Virus record (IMG/VR): IMGVR_UViG_3300020055_000004
Strand: one strand, 5' to 3'
DNA from: a virus
Length of the DNA stretch: 64,000 nucleotides
Below are positions 21,219-31,079 of this stretch, in pieces; positions within the stretch are counted from its first letter, which is position 1; each line of letters begins with the position of its first letter. Both the position numbers and the translations under genes were made by a program. Under the pieces are notes generated by a model, which saw only the letters and a program-made list of their open reading frames with translations, had not been told where the DNA came from and did not search any database.

Positions 21219-24200
21219 ATGGCATTACTTTCAGGTTTTGATCAGATAGATCCAGCTAACGACTCATTTAGCGATTGGTTACAAAAAACCAATGAGATGT
21301 TGTTGATCATCCGAGGTAACACAGTTCCCGGTACTACACAGGCAATGACTGCAAATAGTTTGCCCGGTGGTTCTATGACTTGGGGTAATGCGACACTCTT
21401 CGGTCAATTTACTGCCAACACAATGGTTGTACTCAATGATGGTGGAAACGACGGATCAGATGATAATGTTTTCGCTAACGGAAGCTTTGGTGGTTTAAGG
21501 GGCGGCAACTGGGATCCAGCAACTAATAATATTAGCGCCGATACACTTTACGTAGTTTCAAATACTACATTTACAGATGAAGGTAACGTTGTATATGTCG
21601 ATACAATGTACGGTCTTCAAGTAGAAGCCAATACAGAACTACGACATGATGTTTTGTTCGTAGGCAATGGCGGCACAGCCGTTAATCCAAAGTTGAAGTG
21701 GGAAGATGCTGATAATATCCTCAGCTTTAATGATAATGTCCGTGCAGTCTTTGGTAAAGATTCGGGTTCAGAAGTTGTAGGCGGTACAGGTCAAGCAGAA
21801 TTCTTATTTGTTGACGCAGATAGTCGAATGTATGTCAACACAGAGAACATGAACATTCGTGCAAATACTGACGTCAACTTTATTACAGATAACTTCGAGC
21901 TGAAGTCAGATATAGGTTCAGAACTTTATATCTCAGCTGATGTTGCAGATAACAGCACAGTCAAGCTATATTACGAAGGAAATCTTAGACTCTCCACGAA
22001 TACTCATGGTGTTGTAGTCGATGGTGATACTATTATCAAAGATGACATCGTAATGTTTGATACCGGTCGAATCATGATGGGTGGAACATACCCATATGAT
22101 GGCACACAAGATATTGCAACATATAACTTCCAGATTTATACTGATGGCACAGACGGTATTATTGTATCAGGTGATAAGGATCTAAATATTTTCGTGCACG
22201 AAGGATTCAATCTTACGAATGAGCCCGGTACGATAAACTTTATTACTGCAAATAACGATGGCTCGAGCGAAGTTGTTCTTTATAACAATGGTGATGCTCG
22301 TCTCGAAACAACAGGAACACAATTAGGTGAAGTACCGGGTGTAGAAGTATTTGGCGAAGCTAATACAACAACACTTCGAGTCAGAGAAGATGCAAACTTT
22401 GATGGATTTGGTGGACTTAATTCAAACAACGTACATTGGGATGCATCAGCAAATACGTGGAACTATCGTGACGCAACTAAGATTACTCTTGGTGACAGTG
22501 ATGACTGGGAAATGTTTTATACTGCTGCCGGTCGAGCCTATTCGAATACGGACAATCAAGACATTCGAGCTCGCGTCGATCTTAATATCATTTCAGATAT
22601 TGTAGAAATTAAATCAGAACTCGGTAGCGAATTGTATATGTCGGCCGATGTTGCTGACAATAGCACAGTTAAACTTTACTACGAAGGCAATGTAAGACTG
22701 TCGACAAATACACACGGTATAGTTGTTGATGGTGATACGATTGTAAAAGACAATGTCGTAGTCTTCGATAATAATAAGATTTTGATGGGTGGCACATATC
22801 CATACACAGGCGCCGAAGACATCGCTGATTATAATTTCCAAATTTACACCGATGGAACTGATGGTATTATTGTTTCTGGTGATAAAGATCTAAATATTTT
22901 TGTACACGAAGGATTTAATCTTACTAACGAGCCTGGCACTATTAGCTTTATTACTGCTAATAATGACGGATCGAGTGAAGTTGTTCTTTATAATGGTGGT
23001 GTTGCTAGACTTGAAACAACAGGAACACAATTAGGTGAAGTACCCGGCGTTGAAATACACGGTGAAGCAAATACAGATACGTTAAGAGTCACAGAAGATG
23101 CTAACTTCGATGGATCTGGTGGATTAGATTCTAATAATGTTCATTGGGATGCATCGGCTAATACATGGAACTACCGTGATGCAACTAAGATTACTCTTGG
23201 TGATAGCGATGATTGGGAGATGTTCTATCTAGCAGCTGGCCGTGCATACTCTAACACCGATAATATGGATATTCGTGCTCGCACAGACATGAATATGATT
23301 ACCGACACGTTTGAGTTGAAGTCTGAATCCGGTGCAGAATTATACATGTCAGCTAATGTAGCTGATAATAGCACAGTTAGATTATACTACGAAGGTTCTG
23401 AACGTCTACAAACAAATACACACGGTGTTGAAGTTACAGGTGAATTGGTAGCCAACGGTGGTATTGTTACATACAACGACCAACCAATCGAAATGGGTGG
23501 CGCGAACTACGCTGCAGCTCATAACTTTACGATTGTTACCGACGGTACTGATACAACAATTACAGAAACAGCTAATGATCTATTTGTTCGTGTACAAGAT
23601 AATTTCCGTGTCACTGATGATACCGGTGTTACTTCTCTTATCGTAGCAAACACATCAGGCGAAGTAACTCTCTATCATAATAACAATCAAAAGTTACAAA
23701 CAAATAATTATGGTATCGAAGTTACTGGCGAAGCTAATACTGGAACATTGCGGGTTCGTACTGACGCAAACTTCGACGGTACCGATGCTAATGGAGATAT
23801 TTTATTAGATTCTAATAATATGTCATGGGATGGTAGTGCTAATACATTATATTTAAAAGACAGTTCACCAATTGTAATTGGTGATGGCGGAGATCTAAGC
23901 ATTTATCATGACGGCACTAATAGTTATATTGAAGAAGCTAATACCGGTAGCCTTATTATCGAAGGTACAAATTTAGTACTAAGAGCGACTGACGATTCTC
24001 GCTATCTAGAAGGTATCGATGGAACTGGTACTCGACTTTATTCACCTGATGATACTATAGCATTAGTTGCAAACAATAATCAGATTCATATTACTGACCT
24101 CGCTAATACTTCAACTTTACGCGTCCGTAGTACTTCATTGTTTGAAGGTAGTATTGATATCGAAGGTTCTACAAGTGTTAATACTCTTACTTGGACTAAA

Positions 24201-26483
24201 TCGTCCAATACACTAAACTTCGATGATGATAACTTCGCTACATTTGGTACAGGTGGAGATTTAAGCGTTTATCATGATGCAAATAATTCATACATTGAGA
24301 ATATTACTGGTGAATTATATATTCAAGGCGATGGTATTACAATTAGAAGTCATACTGGCACTGAAGAATTTATAACTGCAGACGTAGGCGGCGCTGTCAC
24401 TTTATATTGGGATGATGCAATAAAGCTTCAAACAAATACAAATGGTATTGAAGTTACAGGTCAAGTCATTGCATCAACAGGTTTTGTTACATATAATGAT
24501 CAAAAGATTGAGATGGGTGGTACTAATTATGCAGATGCCCATATTTTCGAAATTTATACAGATGGTTCTAATAGCTATATTACAGAAACCGGTGGCGGCG
24601 ACTTAAATGTTCAGGCCAATAATCTTATTTTAGAAGCTACAGATGGAACAGATTATTTTGTAGCTACGAGTGGTGCAAATACTACTATTCATCATGGCGA
24701 CGGTACACAAATTCTAGAAATAAGAACTGACGGCGTCGACATTGAAGGCGAAGCTAATACTGATACGTTGCGTGTTCAAGGTAATGCTAAATTTGAAGGT
24801 ACAGACGATACAATTTACCTTGAGTGGTTGGCAGGCACTAAAGTACTTGATTTTAACGATGATGTAAAAGCTAGATTTGGCGATAATCATGACCTAGAAA
24901 TCTATAGCGACGGTTCGATTTCACATATCTTAGAAAGTGGTAGTGGTAATTTAGTTATTGAAGGTACAAATTTAACACTAAGAGCCACAGATGATACTAA
25001 TTATATGGCTGCTACAGACGGTGGCAGTGTACAATTGTACTACGCAGGCGAAGGTGCGAATAACATAGTACGAGTTTCTACGACTAATCTTGGTGTAGAT
25101 ATTGAAGGTGAAGCCAATACTGATACATTAAAAGTTCAAGGCGATGCAGCATTCCAAAATGGTGGAAATGATGAAATAAATTGGGAAGCTACTAATAATA
25201 TTCTAAATTTCAATGATGGTGTAAAAGCTACATTTGGTACTGATGATGATTTAGAAATTTACTTTGACGCTACAGGCAACAATTCAATAATTCGCGAAAC
25301 TGGCGGCGGCGATTTATATCTTCAAGCTAATGGTATGATACTTGAAGATACATCCGGTAATAATTATGTTGATATGGTAGCTGGTGGTGCGGTTTCTTTA
25401 TATCACAATGGTGCTACAAAATTAGCCACAAAGTCGACAGGTGTAGGAGTAACTGGACAATTAGATGTATCTACAAATATTGTAGCTGATGGTAATCTTA
25501 CTGTAAAAGGTAATACAACACTTGGTGATGCTAATACTGATACTATTGATGCAGTGGCCGAATTTGTAAGTAATTTAATACCTGAAGCAAATACCACATA
25601 TAATATTGGTAGCAGTGATAATAAATGGAATGATTTGCATCTAGATGGAGCCATGAATTCAGGCTCAATTCAAACTGGAATAATTGCCGGTGGCAATACT
25701 ACAATTACCGGCGACGTTGATGCAACTACATTTACTGGTAATGGCGCTGCGATTACCAATTTAAATGCATCCAATATTGATGCTGGTACAATTGGTGATG
25801 ATTATTTGCCTGATGAAATTTCATCCGATATTACCGGTACTGCAGCTCAAGCAAATACAGTTGAAATTCATACTTCTACAGACGATCAAGAATTTAGAGT
25901 AGCATTTACTGCCAATACTGCTGATTATCATGATATATATGCAGATTCTGGTTTATTATATAATCCAGTAGATAAGATACTATATGCTGACAATCTGACG
26001 GTCAATACAAATATTACTTTACCATCAGAAGTAACTTTAGCATTAGCAAATGTTACTGATCTTGAAGTGTCGAATACAGCAACAATTCTCAATCTAGAAG
26101 TAACATCGCTTGAAGCCAATGGCGTAGCATTTACCGGTACAGGTGGAGATGTAACTAGTAATGTAGCAACGCTTATCGATACTTTCCCAATCGAGCAAAC
26201 TCGTGGATTTAAATACTTTGTTCATGGTGAAGTTACCAACGATGATACTAAAGGATATGCAGTTGAGATCAATGTTATAACAACTGATACTGGTGCTGAT
26301 ACAAAGATTTTCTACACTCGATATGGTGAAGTAGAGAGTGGTATGGCAGATGTTAATTTAGTACCACAACTCGCTGCAAATAATACTCATATCGATTTAA
26401 TGGCCACGTGCGACTCTGCAACGGCTACTGATATTCATAGATTTAATGTACTTAAAATTGAAACAAGGGATAATGGTGTATAA
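21219..26483 (+). CDS. Long tail-fibre-like protein with internal repeats
   Basis: 1754 aa, beta-rich. N-terminal DSFSDWLQKTNE motif, recurrent DL.IY.DG.NSYI, V.LY...KL.T...G.EV.G and GEANT.TLRV units, and a 708-nt tandem duplication. Confidence 0.75.
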   Translation: MALLSGFDQIDPANDSFSDWLQKTNEMLLIIRGNTVPGTTQAMTANSLPGGSMTWGNATLFGQFTANTMVVLNDGGNDGSDDNVFANGSFGGLRGGNWDPATNNISADTLYVVSNTTFTDEGNVVYVDTMYGLQVEANTELRHDVLFVGNGGTAVNPKLKWEDADNILSFNDNVRAVFGKDSGSEVVGGTGQAEFLFVDADSRMYVNTENMNIRANTDVNFITDNFELKSDIGSELYISADVADNSTVKLYYEGNLRLSTNTHGVVVDGDTIIKDDIVMFDTGRIMMGGTYPYDGTQDIATYNFQIYTDGTDGIIVSGDKDLNIFVHEGFNLTNEPGTINFITANNDGSSEVVLYNNGDARLETTGTQLGEVPGVEVFGEANTTTLRVREDANFDGFGGLNSNNVHWDASANTWNYRDATKITLGDSDDWEMFYTAAGRAYSNTDNQDIRARVDLNIISDIVEIKSELGSELYMSADVADNSTVKLYYEGNVRLSTNTHGIVVDGDTIVKDNVVVFDNNKILMGGTYPYTGAEDIADYNFQIYTDGTDGIIVSGDKDLNIFVHEGFNLTNEPGTISFITANNDGSSEVVLYNGGVARLETTGTQLGEVPGVEIHGEANTDTLRVTEDANFDGSGGLDSNNVHWDASANTWNYRDATKITLGDSDDWEMFYLAAGRAYSNTDNMDIRARTDMNMITDTFELKSESGAELYMSANVADNSTVRLYYEGSERLQTNTHGVEVTGELVANGGIVTYNDQPIEMGGANYAAAHNFTIVTDGTDTTITETANDLFVRVQDNFRVTDDTGVTSLIVANTSGEVTLYHNNNQKLQTNNYGIEVTGEANTGTLRVRTDANFDGTDANGDILLDSNNMSWDGSANTLYLKDSSPIVIGDGGDLSIYHDGTNSYIEEANTGSLIIEGTNLVLRATDDSRYLEGIDGTGTRLYSPDDTIALVANNNQIHITDLANTSTLRVRSTSLFEGSIDIEGSTSVNTLTWTKSSNTLNFDDDNFATFGTGGDLSVYHDANNSYIENITGELYIQGDGITIRSHTGTEEFITADVGGAVTLYWDDAIKLQTNTNGIEVTGQVIASTGFVTYNDQKIEMGGTNYADAHIFEIYTDGSNSYITETGGGDLNVQANNLILEATDGTDYFVATSGANTTIHHGDGTQILEIRTDGVDIEGEANTDTLRVQGNAKFEGTDDTIYLEWLAGTKVLDFNDDVKARFGDNHDLEIYSDGSISHILESGSGNLVIEGTNLTLRATDDTNYMAATDGGSVQLYYAGEGANNIVRVSTTNLGVDIEGEANTDTLKVQGDAAFQNGGNDEINWEATNNILNFNDGVKATFGTDDDLEIYFDATGNNSIIRETGGGDLYLQANGMILEDTSGNNYVDMVAGGAVSLYHNGATKLATKSTGVGVTGQLDVSTNIVADGNLTVKGNTTLGDANTDTIDAVAEFVSNLIPEANTTYNIGSSDNKWNDLHLDGAMNSGSIQTGIIAGGNTTITGDVDATTFTGNGAAITNLNASNIDAGTIGDDYLPDEISSDITGTAAQANTVEIHTSTDDQEFRVAFTANTADYHDIYADSGLLYNPVDKILYADNLTVNTNITLPSEVTLALANVTDLEVSNTATILNLEVTSLEANGVAFTGTGGDVTSNVATLIDTFPIEQTRGFKYFVHGEVTNDDTKGYAVEINVITTDTGADTKIFYTRYGEVESGMADVNLVPQLAANNTHIDLMATCDSATATDIHRFNVLKIETRDNGV

Positions 26484-26906: not shown

Positions 26907-28085
26907 ATGACTGCTACCTCACAAAAATTTGACACATTAGACGGGTTAGTTGTTACTGGCTCAATGGAGGTTGGTGCCAATTTAGCAGTTGACACCAATG
27001 TCTTATTCGTTGATACCGTAAACAATCGGGTCGGCATAAACGATTCATCACCATCATATCCGCTTGATGTAGTTGGCACTGCACAAATTACAGGTGGCTT
27101 ATATATTGGCACCAATATTACTCACGTCGGCGACACTGATACCACGATCGGATTCTCGAACAATCAAATTGATATTACAGCTGGCAATGCAAATATAGCA
27201 AGTGCTAATACTACTATGCTATCAATTAATGCTGGTGATGGTATACAAGTAAGAGGTGTTAGTCCTACTAGTACATTTGCTACAAATACAGAAAAAGCTG
27301 ATGGCGGCATTGGTGTTAATTCTATAAACACATCAATGATACTATCACAAGATGATACTGCCACTGGTATTATTTTTGGTGCTTTGACGAACGATGATGT
27401 ACCAGATCCTAATTTTGGTGGTACTTGGTCAAGCACATCAGCTGATGAAATATCGATAATTATTGGTGATCGAAGACGGGCATATTTTGATAACGACGGT
27501 CTTCATTTTTCTAACCTCTCGGCATCTGATAACACAATTGATGGTGTTGATAATGTAGAGATTCTTAGTAGTATTACTCATAGCGGCGATGTTGCAACAA
27601 AATTAGAATTTGATGCTACTGCATCTATAAGATTGGTATCAAATGGATCTGAAAGATTAAAAGTTAATGCTACACAAACATATATTAGTGGTGATTTAGA
27701 TGTAACAACTGACATCATGGCGCGCCGTATTCAAGTAGAAGATTATTTTAAGGAAACTGTAGTAGCTGCATCAACAGGAAATTCAGTAAACATAAACGTA
27801 AATTCTGGTTCGGTATATACATTTACGCCAAATGCTAACTATTCGGTTGATTTTACAAATTTCCCAACGGCAGCTGGTGAAGCTGCAGCGTTTACTTTAG
27901 TCATAGATAACAATGGCACCGCAAGAGAAGCTACGTGGCCAGGGGAACTAGAAGGAGATGCTATATATTGGGCAGAATCAGTAGAACCTCCATCGTCATC
28001 TGGAATTGACATATATAATTTTGTAGTAATTGCTGGTAAAATATATGGTTCATTATCAATTCGAAATGCTGGTTGGGCACAGTAA
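26907..28085 (+). CDS. Tail-fibre-like protein with C-terminal adaptor-like domain
   Basis: VDTNVLFVDTVNNRVGIN..SPSYPLDVVG fibre motif; C-terminal domain shared with 38345-38986. Confidence 0.7.
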   Translation: MTATSQKFDTLDGLVVTGSMEVGANLAVDTNVLFVDTVNNRVGINDSSPSYPLDVVGTAQITGGLYIGTNITHVGDTDTTIGFSNNQIDITAGNANIASANTTMLSINAGDGIQVRGVSPTSTFATNTEKADGGIGVNSINTSMILSQDDTATGIIFGALTNDDVPDPNFGGTWSSTSADEISIIIGDRRRAYFDNDGLHFSNLSASDNTIDGVDNVEILSSITHSGDVATKLEFDATASIRLVSNGSERLKVNATQTYISGDLDVTTDIMARRIQVEDYFKETVVAASTGNSVNINVNSGSVYTFTPNANYSVDFTNFPTAAGEAAAFTLVIDNNGTAREATWPGELEGDAIYWAESVEPPSSSGIDIYNFVVIAGKIYGSLSIRNAGWAQ

Positions 28086-28100
28086 TAAAGAGGATGTAAT

Positions 28101-30449
28101 ATGCCAATAGGAGGCGGAAAAAGTTTTCTAGATAGAACGTGGGCTGCCACTTTTTCTGAAACTAGATATAAAGAAGCAACGTCAGGTACAACTGATGCTA
28201 CTCCTATCTCTATTCCTTATGGTCGTCAAATCATTGAGATTGAGGCTAGAGGTGGTGGTGCTAGTGCTCCAACATTAAAAGCAGCATATAGTACAACTAA
28301 AGCAGTTTATCAAACTAATGCAATTACTAATTATCCATCACGATTGCAGAAGGCTGCCTATCAGAATCAAACAAACTATCCTTCTAGATTACAGAAAGCT
28401 GCTTATCAGATTCAAACCAATTTTCCTTCTCGGTTGCAAAAATCTGCTTACCAAAATCAAACTAATTATCCTTCTCGGTTGCAAAAAGCTGCCTATCAGA
28501 ATCAAACCAATTATCCTTCTCGGTTGCAAAAATCTGCTTACCAAAATCAAACTAATTATCCTAGTAGACAGCAGAAGGCCGCCTATAGTGTTATCACTAA
28601 TTACCCTAGTAGAGAACAAAAAGCTGCTTACCAAAATCAAACCGATTATCCTAGCAGACAGGTGAAAGCTGCCTATAGTGTTATCACTAATTATCCTAGT
28701 AGAGAACAAAAAGCTGCTTACCAAAATCAAACGGATTACCCTAGTAGACAGCAGAAGGCCGCTTACCAAAATCAAACCGATTATCCTAGTAGACAACAAA
28801 AGGCCGCCTATAGTGTTATCACTAATTACCCTAGCAGACAGCAAAAAGCTGCTTACCAAAATCAAACGGATTATCCTAGTAGACAGGTGAAAGCTGCCTA
28901 TAGTGTTATCACTAATTACCCTAGCAGACAGGCGAAGGCTGCCTATAGTGTTATCACTAATTATCCTGGCAGACTGCAAAAATCTGCCTATAGTGTTATC
29001 ACTAATTATCCTAGTAGACAGCAGAAGGCTGCCTATCAAAATCAAACCGATTATCCTAGTAGACAGGTGAAAGCTGCCTATCAAGATCAAACAGATTATC
29101 CTAGTAGACAGGTGAAAGGTGCCTATAGTGTTATCACTAATTACCCTAGCAGACAGCAAAAGGGTGCTTATTCTAATGTTGCTAACTTCCCAGCAAGGAC
29201 CACTTCTTTTACTCAAGCAGCTTATTCTTCAGGTTATACTTTCGGGCAGGTATTTTTTCCGACCTATCAAACATTTACTGCTACAGCGTATTACCCGTCG
29301 CGAGTTGTATATTCGGGAAAAGCTGCTTATTCACAAACAACAAACTATCCTGCTAGAAATAATCCAGCATACCAAAATCAAACTGATTATCCTGCTAGAA
29401 ATCAAGCAGCATATTCAGTTGTAACAACCTATCCTGCTAGAAACAAAGCAGCATATTCGGTTATAACAAACTATCCTGCTAGAAACAATCCGGCATACCA
29501 AAATCAAACTGATTATCCTGCTAGAAATAATCCAGCATACCAAAATCAAACTGATTATCCTGCTAGAAATAATCCAGCATACCAAAATCAAACAGATTAT
29601 CCTGCTAGAAATCAAGCAGCATATTCTGTTGTAACAAATTATCCTGCTAGAAATAATCCAGCATACCAAAATCAAACTGATTATCCTGTTAGAAATAATC
29701 CAGCATATTCGGTTGTAACAAACTATCCGTTGCGTAATAATCCAGCATATTCAGTTGTAACAAACTATCCTGTTAGAAACAATCCGGCATATCAAAATCA
29801 AACAGATTATCCTGCTAGAAATCAAGCAGCATATTCTGTTGTAACAAATTATCCATTGCGTAATAATCCAGCTTATTCGGTTGTAACAAACTATCCTGTT
29901 AGAAACAATCCGGCTTATTCTGTTGTAACAAACTATCCATCACGTAATCAGCCGGCTTATTCAGTTGTAACAAATTATCCATTGCGTAATAATCCAGCAT
30001 ATGCGGTTGCAACATATTATCCATTGCGTAATAATCCAGCATATTCTGTTGTAACAAACTATCCTGCTAGAAATAATCCAGCATACCAAGTTGTAACAAA
30101 TTATCCATCACGCAATCAGCCGGCATATTCGGTAACTAATGTTACTAATTATCCTTCTCGTGTAACTAATTATCCAGCAAGAACTACACTCGGGCTTGCT
30201 GGTGATGACACAACAGTTCAATGGACAACTCCTGATGGTACTCCTGTTAGTGTAACTGCGCCGGGTGCTGCACCTAATGTTACAAATTATGTTACGGCTG
30301 CAGCAACAGCAACATATGTACAAATTACTAATCCAAATGAAGTCGATGGTATAGATGGTACAGACTTATCGGTAAGTGTTGGTAATTCCCCAGCTGGTAA
30401 TAATAATGCTACTAATAGAGGATATATAAATATAAAATACAGTGGTTAA
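28101..30449 (+). CDS. Mirror-repeat fibre protein: long predicted beta-hairpin inserted into a small Gly-rich beta domain
   Basis: 18 x 15-aa repeats, an aromatic turn, then 18 x 14-aa repeats. The flanks (IPYGRQIIEIEARGGG ... LSVSVG...GYINIKYSG) look like two halves of one phage Gly-rich adhesin-type domain. Confidence 0.8.
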   Translation: MPIGGGKSFLDRTWAATFSETRYKEATSGTTDATPISIPYGRQIIEIEARGGGASAPTLKAAYSTTKAVYQTNAITNYPSRLQKAAYQNQTNYPSRLQKAAYQIQTNFPSRLQKSAYQNQTNYPSRLQKAAYQNQTNYPSRLQKSAYQNQTNYPSRQQKAAYSVITNYPSREQKAAYQNQTDYPSRQVKAAYSVITNYPSREQKAAYQNQTDYPSRQQKAAYQNQTDYPSRQQKAAYSVITNYPSRQQKAAYQNQTDYPSRQVKAAYSVITNYPSRQAKAAYSVITNYPGRLQKSAYSVITNYPSRQQKAAYQNQTDYPSRQVKAAYQDQTDYPSRQVKGAYSVITNYPSRQQKGAYSNVANFPARTTSFTQAAYSSGYTFGQVFFPTYQTFTATAYYPSRVVYSGKAAYSQTTNYPARNNPAYQNQTDYPARNQAAYSVVTTYPARNKAAYSVITNYPARNNPAYQNQTDYPARNNPAYQNQTDYPARNNPAYQNQTDYPARNQAAYSVVTNYPARNNPAYQNQTDYPVRNNPAYSVVTNYPLRNNPAYSVVTNYPVRNNPAYQNQTDYPARNQAAYSVVTNYPLRNNPAYSVVTNYPVRNNPAYSVVTNYPSRNQPAYSVVTNYPLRNNPAYAVATYYPLRNNPAYSVVTNYPARNNPAYQVVTNYPSRNQPAYSVTNVTNYPSRVTNYPARTTLGLAGDDTTVQWTTPDGTPVSVTAPGAAPNVTNYVTAAATATYVQITNPNEVDGIDGTDLSVSVGNSPAGNNNATNRGYINIKYSG
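28353..29162 (+). repeat. Coding tandem repeat, 18 x 45 nt, consensus AAY[QNQT|SVIT][ND]YPSRxxK
   Basis: Parsed unit by unit from the translation (aa 85-354). Confidence 0.95.
29364..30119 (+). repeat. Coding tandem repeat, 18 x 42 nt, consensus [PA]AY[QNQT|SVVT][ND]YPxRN[NQ]
   Basis: Parsed unit by unit from the translation (aa 422-673). Confidence 0.95.
30425..30432 (+). promoter_or_regulatory. T4-type late promoter TATAAATA upstream of the oxygenase cassette
   Basis: Exact consensus about 30 nt before ATG 30465, inside the last codons of the fibre gene. Confidence 0.6.
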
Positions 30450-30464
30450 CAAGGTAATTATATT

Positions 30465-31079
30465 ATGCATGAAATTGAGAAGTTGACTCCCGGTCATAAT
30501 CTCCAGCGATTTGGTGTTTATGAAAATGTATTTGATGAAGATGAAATTAATAAAATTAGATTTTTTAAAAAAATTATTAATTTCGAATCTGGTGAAACAT
30601 ATTCTGAACGATCTGAAGGTAAAAAAGTACCTGATTCTACAGATAAAGTTCGGGATTGCAAAGTAGCAAGCCTTCATAGAGAACAAAATACAAATATAGT
30701 CTATGAAAAAATTGGTCATTTAGTTGGCAGAGCTAACTATGATCATTTTCTTTATCCAATTATAGGTATGGAAGATATTCAATATGTTATCTACGACGGG
30801 CCAGGCACTAAATATGATCCACATACAGACGTTCTATTACAAGGCTATAGACCAAAAGATAGAAGAATTTCTGGTATTGTTATGCTATCTGATCCTGAAG
30901 ACTATGAAGGTGGTGAATTAACTATAGATTTAGATGGAAATGGCCATTTATATCCAATTGAATTGAAGAAAGGTGCTGTCGTGTTTTTTGACAGTCATAT
31001 GTTACACCAAGTTACTCCACTTATATCTGGCAATAGAGAAACGCTAGTGTTTTGGGTTTGGGGAGATAGTCAAATATAA
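30465..31079 (+). CDS. 2OG-Fe(II) oxygenase, prolyl-4-hydroxylase/PKHD-like
   Basis: HxD (YDPHTD), LSDPEDYEGGEL, distal His in HQVTP, 2OG-binding Arg in GNRETLVFW. Confidence 0.9.
   Translation: MHEIEKLTPGHNLQRFGVYENVFDEDEINKIRFFKKIINFESGETYSERSEGKKVPDSTDKVRDCKVASLHREQNTNIVYEKIGHLVGRANYDHFLYPIIGMEDIQYVIYDGPGTKYDPHTDVLLQGYRPKDRRISGIVMLSDPEDYEGGELTIDLDGNGHLYPIELKKGAVVFFDSHMLHQVTPLISGNRETLVFWVWGDSQI

What the first reader, a model, noticed from the sequence alone, without database searches (positions are those of the whole stretch)
28281..30182. Protein-level 'reverse complement': a mirror-coded giant beta-hairpin fibre with a two-letter pairing code
Seen in sequence: arm 1 has exactly 18 units of 15 aa (aa 85-354) and arm 2 exactly 18 units of 14 aa (aa 422-673). 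Each unit has a Q core (QNQT) or an S core (SVIT/SVVT; AVAT and QVVT scored as S-like). Reading outward from the centre, arm 1 is SQQSSSQSQQSQSQQQQQ and arm 2 is QSSQQQSQSSQSSSSSSS, so 17 of 18 opposed pairs are Q:S and none is Q:Q. A random shuffle puts all six arm-2 Q units opposite an S unit with probability 7/18564. A second, not fully independent signal agrees: all four arm-1 RQVK linkers face the only four arm-2 linkers lacking Pro (RNQA/RNKA). Irregularities are mirrored too: a core 2 aa longer at each outer end (QTNAIT / SVTNVT), short outer stubs (AAYSTTK / YPSRVTN), odd inner cores (SNVA / SQTT) and extended inner linkers (RTTSFTQ / RVVYSGK). The arms are not DNA inverted repeats, so the symmetry is in the protein. 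Inference: the chain folds back into one antiparallel two-stranded ribbon of about 310 residues per arm, up to about 100 nm at 0.33 nm per residue. The 15 vs 14 mismatch would give one bulge per repeat, and the Q/S pattern would act as a barcode fixing the pairing register. I know of no described phage fibre with such a complementarity code.
Basis: partly seen in the sequence, partly recalled or inferred. Interest (0 to 1): 0.95.

Follow-up and report, generated by a model that had tools for sequence, protein, structure and literature searches.

The report
Fold-back phage fibre with pairing code
A protein in the tail-fibre gene block of a T4-like phage seems to fold back so that its two long repeat arrays run side by side in opposite directions. 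A polar repeat unit in one arm faces a hydrophobic unit in the other, and distant relatives keep this rule through matched changes in both arms, much as base pairs co-vary in an RNA stem.

Summary
Window 28101-30449 (+) encodes a 782-aa protein with 18 units of 15 aa, an aromatic centre, and 18 units of 14 aa. Read outward from the centre, 17 of 18 opposed units are Q-type against S-type (p about 4e-4 in the fixed register).

- AlphaFold places the conserved N-terminal (about 60 aa) and C-terminal (about 90 aa) segments in one beta-sandwich, so the chain must return.
- The unique centre sits at 0.47-0.52 of the insert in 18 relatives.
- Arm sizes change together: 4+4, 6+6, 8+8, 11+11, 19+19 units.
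- Two diverged relatives with other unit sequences are also mirror-complementary (10/10 and 17/17 by blind clustering; combined p about 5e-7).
- One pair of opposed units is swapped between the arms in close relatives.

Not shown: the three-dimensional form, the oligomeric state, the 100-nm two-stranded ribbon, or physical contact between the arms. AlphaFold leaves the arms unmodelled.

No Pfam, PHROG or PDB relative exists. A PKHD-type 2OG hydroxylase gene follows the fibre gene in every locus examined.

The scan's first readers noted the same kind of mirror protein on another genome (e1-5741676, e1-5741689).

The parts
28101..28283 (+). N-terminal segment (aa 1-61). It holds the most conserved motif of the family near the N-terminus and the first strands of a split beta-sandwich.
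   Evidence: Alignment A1/A3 shows 50-57% identity across the family. AlphaFold gives pLDDT 66-83 for aa 13-62 with strands 18-23, 36-38, 43-50 and 58-60.
28284..28355 (+). Outer end of arm 1 (aa 62-85): a core-only stub followed by a unit with a core 2 aa longer.
   Evidence: It is mirrored by the long-core unit and the linker-only stub at the outer end of arm 2.
28356..29165 (+). Arm 1: 18 units of 15 aa (aa 86-355), with 11 Q-type and 7 S-type cores.
29166..29219 (+). Odd inner unit of arm 1 (aa 356-373) with an extended linker.
29220..29285 (+). Apex (aa 374-395): the only non-repetitive stretch. It is aromatic-rich with a central G-Q turn, and is the candidate distal tip.
   Evidence: The least self-similar segment lies at 0.51 of the insert. 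Relatives have aromatic hairpins or small domains at the same central place.
29286..29366 (+). Inner end of arm 2 (aa 396-422): a linker-only piece with an extended linker, then an odd 14-aa unit.
29367..30122 (+). Arm 2: 18 units of 14 aa (aa 423-674), with 6 Q-type and 12 S-type cores. Serine is coded TCN here and AGT in arm 1.
30123..30191 (+). Outer end of arm 2 (aa 675-697): a long-core unit followed by a linker-only stub.
30192..30449 (+). C-terminal segment (aa 698-782, plus the stop codon): the remaining strands of the split beta-sandwich.
   Evidence: AlphaFold gives pLDDT 65-87. VIA alignments of 94-123 residues spanning model residues about 15 to 782 match single-domain jelly-roll chains. 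The region is conserved in alignments A2/A3.
30465..31079 (+). 2OG-Fe(II) oxygenase (PF13640, PKHD-type hydroxylase-like), always the next gene. It is a candidate modifier of the fibre; this is inference only.
   Evidence: Pfam E = 2.9e-15. PDB sequence hits to PKHD-type hydroxylases. The same gene follows the fibre gene in every related locus examined.
26907..28085 (+). Conserved upstream neighbour (392 aa) with weak tail-fibre PHROG hits. It is a possible attachment partner; this is inference only.
   Evidence: A 350-392-aa gene sits in the same place in L001-L004.

Best explanation
The gene encodes a virion fibre or whisker of a distant T4-like myovirus, with an out-and-back architecture. 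About 60 N-terminal and 90 C-terminal residues fold together into one small beta-sandwich. This base carries the family's most conserved motif and is probably the end that docks on the virion. The roughly 640 residues between them form an excursion. Arm 1 runs out to an aromatic apex and arm 2 runs back beside it in the opposite direction, so unit i of arm 1 lies level with unit n+1-i of arm 2.

Each unit is a short core strand bounded by two tyrosines, followed by a proline-containing linker. The cores of opposed units most likely pair antiparallel, with the tyrosine of the unit-opening AY motif opposite the tyrosine of YPxR, and the linkers act as loops. Units come in a polar, amide-rich type and an aliphatic type. 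A polar unit is tolerated only opposite an aliphatic one. This makes the two arms specific for each other and helps fix their register. The arms lengthen, shorten and change type only in matched pairs. The variable apex is the likely host-contacting tip.

Shown here: the pattern, its recurrence and covariation in relatives, and co-folding of the termini in models. Inferred: physical contact of opposed units, the geometry, the oligomeric state and the function.
For: 1. Split base. AlphaFold models of the whole protein and of the 179-aa minimal relative P0152 give confident N- and C-terminal segments. VIA aligns 94-123 of those residues to single jelly-roll domains, including the C3 CUB domain, which also carries a large insertion (Z 7.6-8.6).

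2. Central apex. The least repetitive segment lies at 0.47-0.52 of the insert in 18 of 27 sequences from at least 7 subfamilies, with inserts of 314-638 aa.

3. Matched arm sizes:
- 18+18 units here.
- 4+1+4 (P0005), 6+6 (L009/L011) and 8+8 (L005), with the same unit-length order counted from the outer ends. L005 differs from L011 by +2 units in each arm.
- 11+11 in L016 and 19+19 in L035.
- L005 is a residue-level palindrome of motif spacers around the apex.
- P0004 and L006 carry an HPPSP-type insertion at mirrored places in both arms, and the insertion is absent from both arms in their relatives.

4. Complementarity recurs. Blind clustering gives 17/18 here, 10/10 in L007 (different units, aperiodic order) and 17/17 in L035 (three mirrored switch points). 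Parallel and shifted controls fall to chance for the window protein and L007. Switch-point p values of 9e-4, 4e-3 and 6e-4 combine by Fisher's method to 5e-7.

5. Compensatory swap. At level 5 from the outer stubs, L022 has ETST in arm 1 facing VVYQDH in arm 2. L029 and L030 have the reverse. Other polar variants face extra-hydrophobic variants, while standard units face standard units.

6. Context. The gene lies in the baseplate and tail-fibre block.
Against: - No tool showed arm-to-arm contact. AlphaFold leaves the arms at pLDDT about 27 with no secondary structure.
- Why a polar core should prefer an aliphatic partner has no obvious physical basis. The three core residues have nearly equal volume in both types (my calculation from standard residue volumes).
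- Heterotypic pairing is not universal. The L005/L009/P0005 subfamily is almost all S:S.
- Runs of like units, produced by tandem duplication, lower the number of independent events. L020's 10/10 follows from a periodic order repeated in both arms.
- Arm counts are not always equal. P0154 has 10 versus 11 units. L021 lacks four arm-2 units relative to L020, which is otherwise 100% identical.
- L035 carries two frameshifts, so two of its units could not be typed.
- The beta-sandwich matches are only middling (Z under 9), and Foldseek found nothing at E <= 1e-3.
Confidence: 0.75

Rival explanations
1. Fold-back is real, but opposed units do not recognise each other directly. Each level of a trimeric six-arm bundle, like the gp37 needle, needs one hydrophobic unit per chain for the central core and one polar unit outside. 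The complementarity then reflects which arm is buried at that level, and contacts may be between chains.
For: Phage fibres are usually trimers (general knowledge). The base resembles trimeric TNF/C1q-type jelly rolls about as well as monomeric ones (Z about 6). The rule 'never polar:polar, S:S allowed' fits a need for at least one hydrophobic unit per level.
Against: The oligomeric state was not tested. The best fold matches (CUB, GOLD, CBM) are monomeric domains. The residue-level mirror of spacers fits direct pairing at least as well.
Confidence: 0.25
2. This is an ordinary linear trimeric shaft, for example triple beta-spiral-like 15-residue repeats with a conserved proline, in two segments separated by a knee. 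The mirror pattern is chance plus duplication history.
For: The repeats are 14-17 residues long with a conserved proline turn, and AlphaFold gives two short strands per unit. This recalls the adenovirus and reovirus shaft repeat (my knowledge). Tandem duplication does make runs of like units.
Against: The termini co-fold in the models. The apex is always central. There are matched indels and a matched insertion. Complementarity appears in three lineages with p about 5e-7, and there is a reciprocal swap. A direct duplication of arm 1 would give identity in parallel order, which is not seen here or in L007.
Confidence: 0.06
3. The repeat order is an assembly artefact of highly similar tandem units.
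For: Repeats of 42-45 nt at 72-83% identity are hard to assemble. L021 compared with L020 shows a 222-nt repeat-mediated deletion or collapse. L035 has frameshifts.
Against: A random mis-order would not create mirror complementarity. The same architecture appears in at least 29 distinct complete sequences from many independent samples and assemblers. The units differ enough in synonymous sites to be placed.
Confidence: 0.03
4. The symmetry is selected at the nucleic-acid level, through mRNA or DNA structure or control of recombination, rather than in the protein.
For: None found. Only the fact that the arms share near-identical Q-core DNA.
Against: There are no inverted repeats between the arms. 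Q-core and S-core DNA are not complementary. The rule holds in relatives with unrelated unit sequences.
Confidence: 0.02

Closest known systems
Needle domain of the phage T4 long tail fibre tip (gp37, PDB 2XGF)
   Same: Both are phage fibres in which each chain runs out to a distal head and back, so outgoing and returning segments lie antiparallel and carry repeated motifs at matching levels. The fold-back description is my own knowledge of the 2010 structure. The seven iron sites along the needle are described in PMC6957217.
   Different: - There is no sequence similarity and no HxH iron motifs.
- gp37 pairs like with like (His with His).
- The gp37 needle is about 15 nm long and involves only the C-terminal part of the chain.
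- Here both termini are in the base, the arms have 20 units each, and pairing is heterotypic.
SMC, Rad50 and MukB arms (intramolecular antiparallel coiled coil)
   Same: The plan is the same: a globular head made from the N- and C-terminal segments, a long arm made of the two halves of the chain running antiparallel, an apex domain at the midpoint, and arm halves whose lengths and irregularities co-vary (my knowledge).
   Different: Those arms are alpha-helical coiled coils on an ATPase head and act on DNA. Here the units are proline- and tyrosine-containing beta repeats on a small beta-sandwich, in a phage tail-fibre module. This is an analogy of design only.
Triple beta-spiral shaft of adenovirus fibre and reovirus sigma1
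   Same: Both have repeats of about 15 residues with two short strands and a conserved proline or glycine turn (my knowledge; compare).
   Different: The triple beta-spiral is a linear parallel trimer with the head at the C-terminus. It has no fold-back, no two arms and no unit complementarity. Pfam gives no hit.
CUB domain of complement C3 and alpha-2-macroglobulins, with the inserted thioester domain
   Same: These are the best structural matches to the base. A beta-sandwich is interrupted by a long insertion, so that N-side and C-side strands come from distant parts of the chain (Z 7.6-8.6).
   Different: The similarity is a generic fold at middling Z with 8-14% identity. The insertion there is a globular helical domain, not a repeat hairpin.
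Heterospecific coiled coils and RNA stems (pairing codes with compensatory change)
   Same: Two antiparallel segments are held in register by complementary positions. Evolution proceeds by paired changes, as in the ETST/VVYQDH swap.
   Different: Here the unit of pairing is a whole 14-19-residue repeat, and the chemistry is unknown.

Membership tests
T4 gp37-type needle domain | Sequence similarity to gp37 or its relatives | tested here: not met
   There is no PDB sequence match at E <= 0.1, no Pfam family, and the tblastn search of phage records gave no gp37 hit.
T4 gp37-type needle domain | HxH motifs on the outgoing and returning strands that bind iron | tested here: not met
   The arms of P0001 contain no histidine.
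T4 gp37-type needle domain | The chain reverses at a distal head, so outgoing and returning segments are antiparallel | tested here: inconclusive
   Supported indirectly by the termini co-folding, the central apex and the mirror covariation. No model of the arms was obtained.
T4 gp37-type needle domain | Homotrimer | not tested
Triple beta-spiral (adenovirus or reovirus shaft) | Linear parallel trimer with the N-terminus at the virion and a C-terminal head | tested here: not met
   The N- and C-terminal segments are modelled in one domain.
Triple beta-spiral (adenovirus or reovirus shaft) | Repeat of about 15 residues with two strands and a Pro/Gly turn | tested here: met
   The units are 14-15 aa with an invariant YP. 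The P0152 model has two short strands per unit.
Jelly-roll or beta-sandwich head (TNF/C1q, CUB, GOLD, CBM-like) | Two-sheet beta-sandwich of about 140 residues matching solved domains | tested here: inconclusive
   VIA gives Z 5.3-8.6 over 87-123 aligned residues, with many unrelated sandwich families tied. Foldseek found nothing at E <= 1e-3. Atlas TM scores are below 0.5.
SMC/Rad50-like architecture (design analogy, not homology) | Head formed by the N- and C-terminal segments, with the apex at the midpoint of the chain | tested here: met
SMC/Rad50-like architecture (design analogy, not homology) | Alpha-helical coiled-coil arms and an ABC ATPase head | tested here: not met
   The models contain no helices of four or more residues, and there are no ATPase motifs or Pfam hits.
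Annotated phage tail-fibre families (Pfam, PHROGs) | Profile match above threshold | tested here: not met
   Pfam gives no family. PHROGs gives only two weak, unnamed hits with no significant stretch of their own.

The most novel reading that the evidence does not exclude
This is a new fibrous protein architecture. Two beta-repeat arrays of one chain recognise each other unit by unit through a heterotypic polar/aliphatic code that sets partner and register. The arrays evolve by compensatory changes: paired indels, paired insertions and reciprocal unit swaps, the protein counterpart of covariation in an RNA stem. Fibre length is tuned by adding unit pairs. The hydroxylase gene always found next to the fibre gene may modify the invariant YP or other residues during assembly.
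Probability: 0.55. Interest if true: 0.92.

Novelty: categorically new. Interest (0 to 1): 0.86.

Why it matters
If opposed units really contact each other, this family offers a naturally occurring, sequence-readable pairing rule for beta-repeat proteins. A fibre's internal register could then be read from sequence alone, and helix-like covariation analysis could be applied to a protein.

It would add a new fold class to the small list of phage fibre architectures. It would explain how fibre length can change in steps without losing the fold. It would also give protein designers a heterospecific beta 'zipper'.

The family is unannotated yet recurs in metagenome contigs (at least 29 distinct complete sequences), always next to a PKHD-type hydroxylase. 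That points to an unstudied fibre-maturation step.

Tried and rejected
- **AlphaFold2, whole protein.** The arms were not modelled (pLDDT about 27), so there is no contact map and no test of the ribbon.
- **Complex prediction, arm 1 (aa 266-395) against arm 2 (aa 396-506).** The verdict was 'no answer' (score 0.00, partner poorly folded). This is neither for nor against.
- **Structure libraries.** Foldseek against PDB, the ESM Atlas by shape and by features, and PDB by sequence gave nothing usable beyond a generic beta-sandwich.
- **Known phage records.** Megablast of 6 kb found no match. tblastn found one weak repeat hit in a Ruminococcus phage.
- **First viral-contig scan with the window's own N-terminus.** Nothing was found. 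The alignment-based scans worked.
- **Locating the apex as the largest gap between aromatic-Pro anchors.** This failed on heterogeneous relatives. I replaced it with a self-similarity minimum. That method still mis-set the C boundary in L022 and L030, and in the P0014 group it picked a second unique insertion.
- **Nucleic-acid complementarity between Q and S cores.** Rejected by inspecting the unit DNA and by the inverted-repeat search.
- **Size complementarity of the cores.** Rejected, because the summed residue volumes of the two core types are nearly equal (my calculation).
- **L020's 10/10 complementarity.** Discounted, because its order is periodic and the same in both arms.
Full report
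**What is in the sequence**

Window 28101-30449 (+) is one ORF of 782 aa, stored as P0001. Tandem Repeats Finder reports a 45-nt array and a 42-nt array.

- a conserved N-terminal segment of about 60 aa;
- a core-only stub and a long-core unit;
- 18 units of 15 aa (aa 86-355), then an odd unit;
- a 22-aa aromatic, non-repetitive centre;
- a linker-only piece and an odd unit, then 18 units of 14 aa (aa 423-674);
- a long-core unit and a linker-only stub;
- a C-terminal segment of about 85 aa.

Each unit has a QNQT-type or an SV(I/V)T-type core. Read outward from the centre, 17 of 18 opposed pairs are Q:S, one is S:S and none is Q:Q.

**Is the pattern more than chance?**

- Shuffling in the fixed register gives p = 3.8e-4.
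- Allowing both orientations, identity or complement, and shifts of up to 6 gives p = 1e-3.
- A switch-point test that respects runs of like units gives 9e-4.
- Blind two-cluster typing of the units reproduces 17/18. The parallel arrangement gives 11/18 and shifted registers fall to chance.
- The RQVK linkers of arm 1 and the proline-free linkers of arm 2 occupy the same four junctions.
- There is no DNA inverted repeat.
- The S cores use AGT for serine in arm 1 and TCN in arm 2, while the Q-core DNA is nearly identical in both arms. The arms are therefore old, and only the Q cassette is shared.

**Genomic context**

The window is one long block of same-strand genes. It includes baseplate-wedge proteins of the gp6, gp7 and gp10 types and giant fibre-like proteins. 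The nearest known gp6 is only 38% identical, from Caulobacter phage Cr30 and the Sinorhizobium phiM12 group. No known phage record matches the DNA.

P0001 has no Pfam family, no PHROG with a significant stretch and no relative in the PDB.

**The family**

Searches of protein and contig collections recovered at least 29 distinct complete relatives of 179-782 aa. All share the N-terminal and C-terminal segments. The middle varies from about 45 to 640 aa.

Gene order is conserved: a large fibre, a 137-aa protein, a 350-392-aa protein, this protein, then a 2OG-Fe(II) oxygenase.

**Evidence that the chain returns**

AlphaFold2 does not model the arms (pLDDT about 27). It does model aa 13-62 and 692-782 with pLDDT 65-87. 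VIA aligns 94-123 of those residues, spanning both ends, to single jelly-roll or beta-sandwich domains. Since the confident C-terminal part has about 90 residues, alignments above 100 residues must include the N-terminal strands.

The best match is the CUB domain of complement C3 and its relatives, a sandwich that also carries a large insertion (Z 7.6). The 179-aa minimal relative P0152 gives the same domain at mean pLDDT 74 (Z up to 8.6). In that model each repeat unit forms two short strands.

These Z values are middling, so I claim only a split beta-sandwich and not a named family.

1. *The apex is central.* An objective measure, the least self-similar 9-residue windows, places the unique segment at 0.47-0.52 of the insert in 18 of 27 sequences, with inserts of 314-638 aa. 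Each exception has an identifiable cause: no unique apex, no repeats, a second unique insertion, or a mis-set boundary.

2. *Arm sizes co-vary.*
 - In one subfamily the unit-length order counted from the outer ends is the same in both arms. It grows from 4+1+4 units (P0005) to 6+6 (L009/L011) to 8+8 (L005). L005 differs from L011 by two extra 17-aa units in each arm.
 - In L005 the spacers between the AY-type and YPxR-type motifs form a residue-level palindrome around the apex.
 - L016 has 11+11 units, with a stub between units 10 and 11 on both sides.
 - L035, the closest relative of the window protein, has 19+19 units.
 - P0004 and L006 carry an HPPSP-type insertion at mirrored positions in both arms, and the insertion is absent from both arms of their relatives.

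3. *Complementarity recurs.*
 - L007 has unrelated 18-19-aa units of two types and an aperiodic order. It is 10/10 complementary in the mirror register and 8/10 in the parallel control.
 - L035 has 17-aa units of two other types and is 17/17 complementary. Its three switch points fall at the same levels in both arms. By eye, its two 18-aa variant units face the only two F-type units, at levels 13 and 16.
 - The switch-point probabilities are 9e-4, 4e-3 and 6e-4, and combine to 5e-7.

4. *A natural compensatory swap.* At level 5 from the outer stubs, L022 has ETST in arm 1 and VVYQDH in arm 2. L029 and L030 have the reverse. In these proteins, standard units face standard units, and polar variants face extra-hydrophobic variants.

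**Limits**

- Heterotypic pairing is not obligatory. The L005/L009/P0005 group is nearly all S:S. The rule across the family is that a polar, amide-rich unit faces an aliphatic one, and polar:polar is not seen.
- L020's 10/10 is weak evidence, because its order is periodic and identical in both arms.
- P0154 has 10 versus 11 units.
- L021 lacks four arm-2 units. It is 100% identical to L020 on both sides of a 222-nt repeat-flanked deletion. It is either an assembly collapse or a very recent variant, so it is not a settled counter-example.
- L035 has two frameshifts.
- Nothing here shows contact, geometry or oligomeric state.
- The arm periods are 15 and 14, and each arm-2 unit has prolines 5 and 9 residues apart. 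This argues against one continuous hydrogen-bonded ribbon of 100 nm. It favours short paired core strands joined by loops. That also explains why unit number, not residue number, is what matches between the arms.

**Likely function (inference)**

The strongly conserved N-terminal motif and the base domain would dock on the virion or on the upstream neighbour. The arms would form a shaft of adjustable length. The hypervariable apex, an aromatic hairpin here and a small cysteine-containing domain in L007 and L020, would be the distal contact site.

The PKHD-type hydroxylase gene follows within about 50 nt in every locus examined. Twelve loci are confirmed by Pfam and six more by visible similarity. 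It may modify the repeats, which all carry YP. This is untested.

**Comparison with what is known**

- Fold-back exists in the T4 gp37 needle, but that needle is short, histidine- and iron-based and homotypic.
- The overall plan is that of SMC/Rad50 arms, but built from beta repeats.
- The repeat length recalls the triple beta-spiral, but the topology excludes it.
- I found no described protein with unit-level complementarity between two repeat arrays. Two literature searches returned only gp37-type work. Absence from that library is weak evidence.

**Earlier notes in this scan**

First-reader notes flagged the same kind of mirror protein in another genome: a 625-aa ORF that appears to be the L005 protein. 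I checked its spacer palindrome myself.

**Verdict**

The fold-back, mirror-paired reading is well supported by independent comparative evidence. The physical mechanism and the dimensions remain open.

Noticed in passing
window 30465-31079 (+), and the gene after the fibre gene in L001-L005, L007, L009, L013, L015, L016, L021, L022, L025, L026, L031, L033 and L035: A roughly 200-aa 2OG-Fe(II) oxygenase (PF13640; PDB sequence hits to PKHD-type hydroxylases) follows the hairpin-fibre gene within about 50 nt in every locus examined. Every repeat unit carries an invariant YP, so fibre hydroxylation is worth testing.
   Followed up: partly
window 28356-29165 compared with 29367-30122: S-type cores use the serine codon AGT in arm 1 and TCN in arm 2. 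Q-type cores, together with the preceding TAC tyrosine codon, are almost identical in DNA in both arms. The Q cassette looks as if it was exchanged between otherwise old, separate arms.
   Followed up: partly
L020 54-2063 compared with L021 1953-3740: These two metagenome contigs are 100% identical except for a 222-nt (four-unit) deletion in arm 2, at a junction where the flanking repeats are about 90% alike. This is either an assembly collapse or a natural variant with unequal arms.
   Followed up: partly
L035 4001-6517: The closest relative of the window protein (72% identity at the N-terminus) is split by two frameshifts within its repeats, on a 62.8-kb contig. These are probably sequencing errors, and the unit order remains readable.
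   Followed up: partly
window 28389-29216 (-): A 275-aa ORF is open on the opposite strand across arm 1. It is most likely a by-product of the repeat composition and not a gene.
   Followed up: no
window 28001-30000: GC skew turns negative (-0.15) only over the fibre gene, in a window that is otherwise uniformly positive. This reflects the C-rich, G-poor repeat codons.
   Followed up: no
window 21219-26483 (+): A 1754-aa fibre-like protein has large internal repeats of about 250-300 aa and hits several tail-fibre and virion-structural PHROGs. A homologous large gene sits at the same position in the related loci.
   Followed up: no
P0004 residues about 462-500, and the L006/L015 equivalent: In this subfamily only, the C-terminal half of the base domain carries an extra insertion of about 27 aa.
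   Followed up: no
L016 213-294 (protein coordinates): Around the apex, bulky RWIVQP linkers face small RGSTQP linkers twice in the mirror register. This is a possible size complementarity in the linkers. It was seen by eye only.
   Followed up: no
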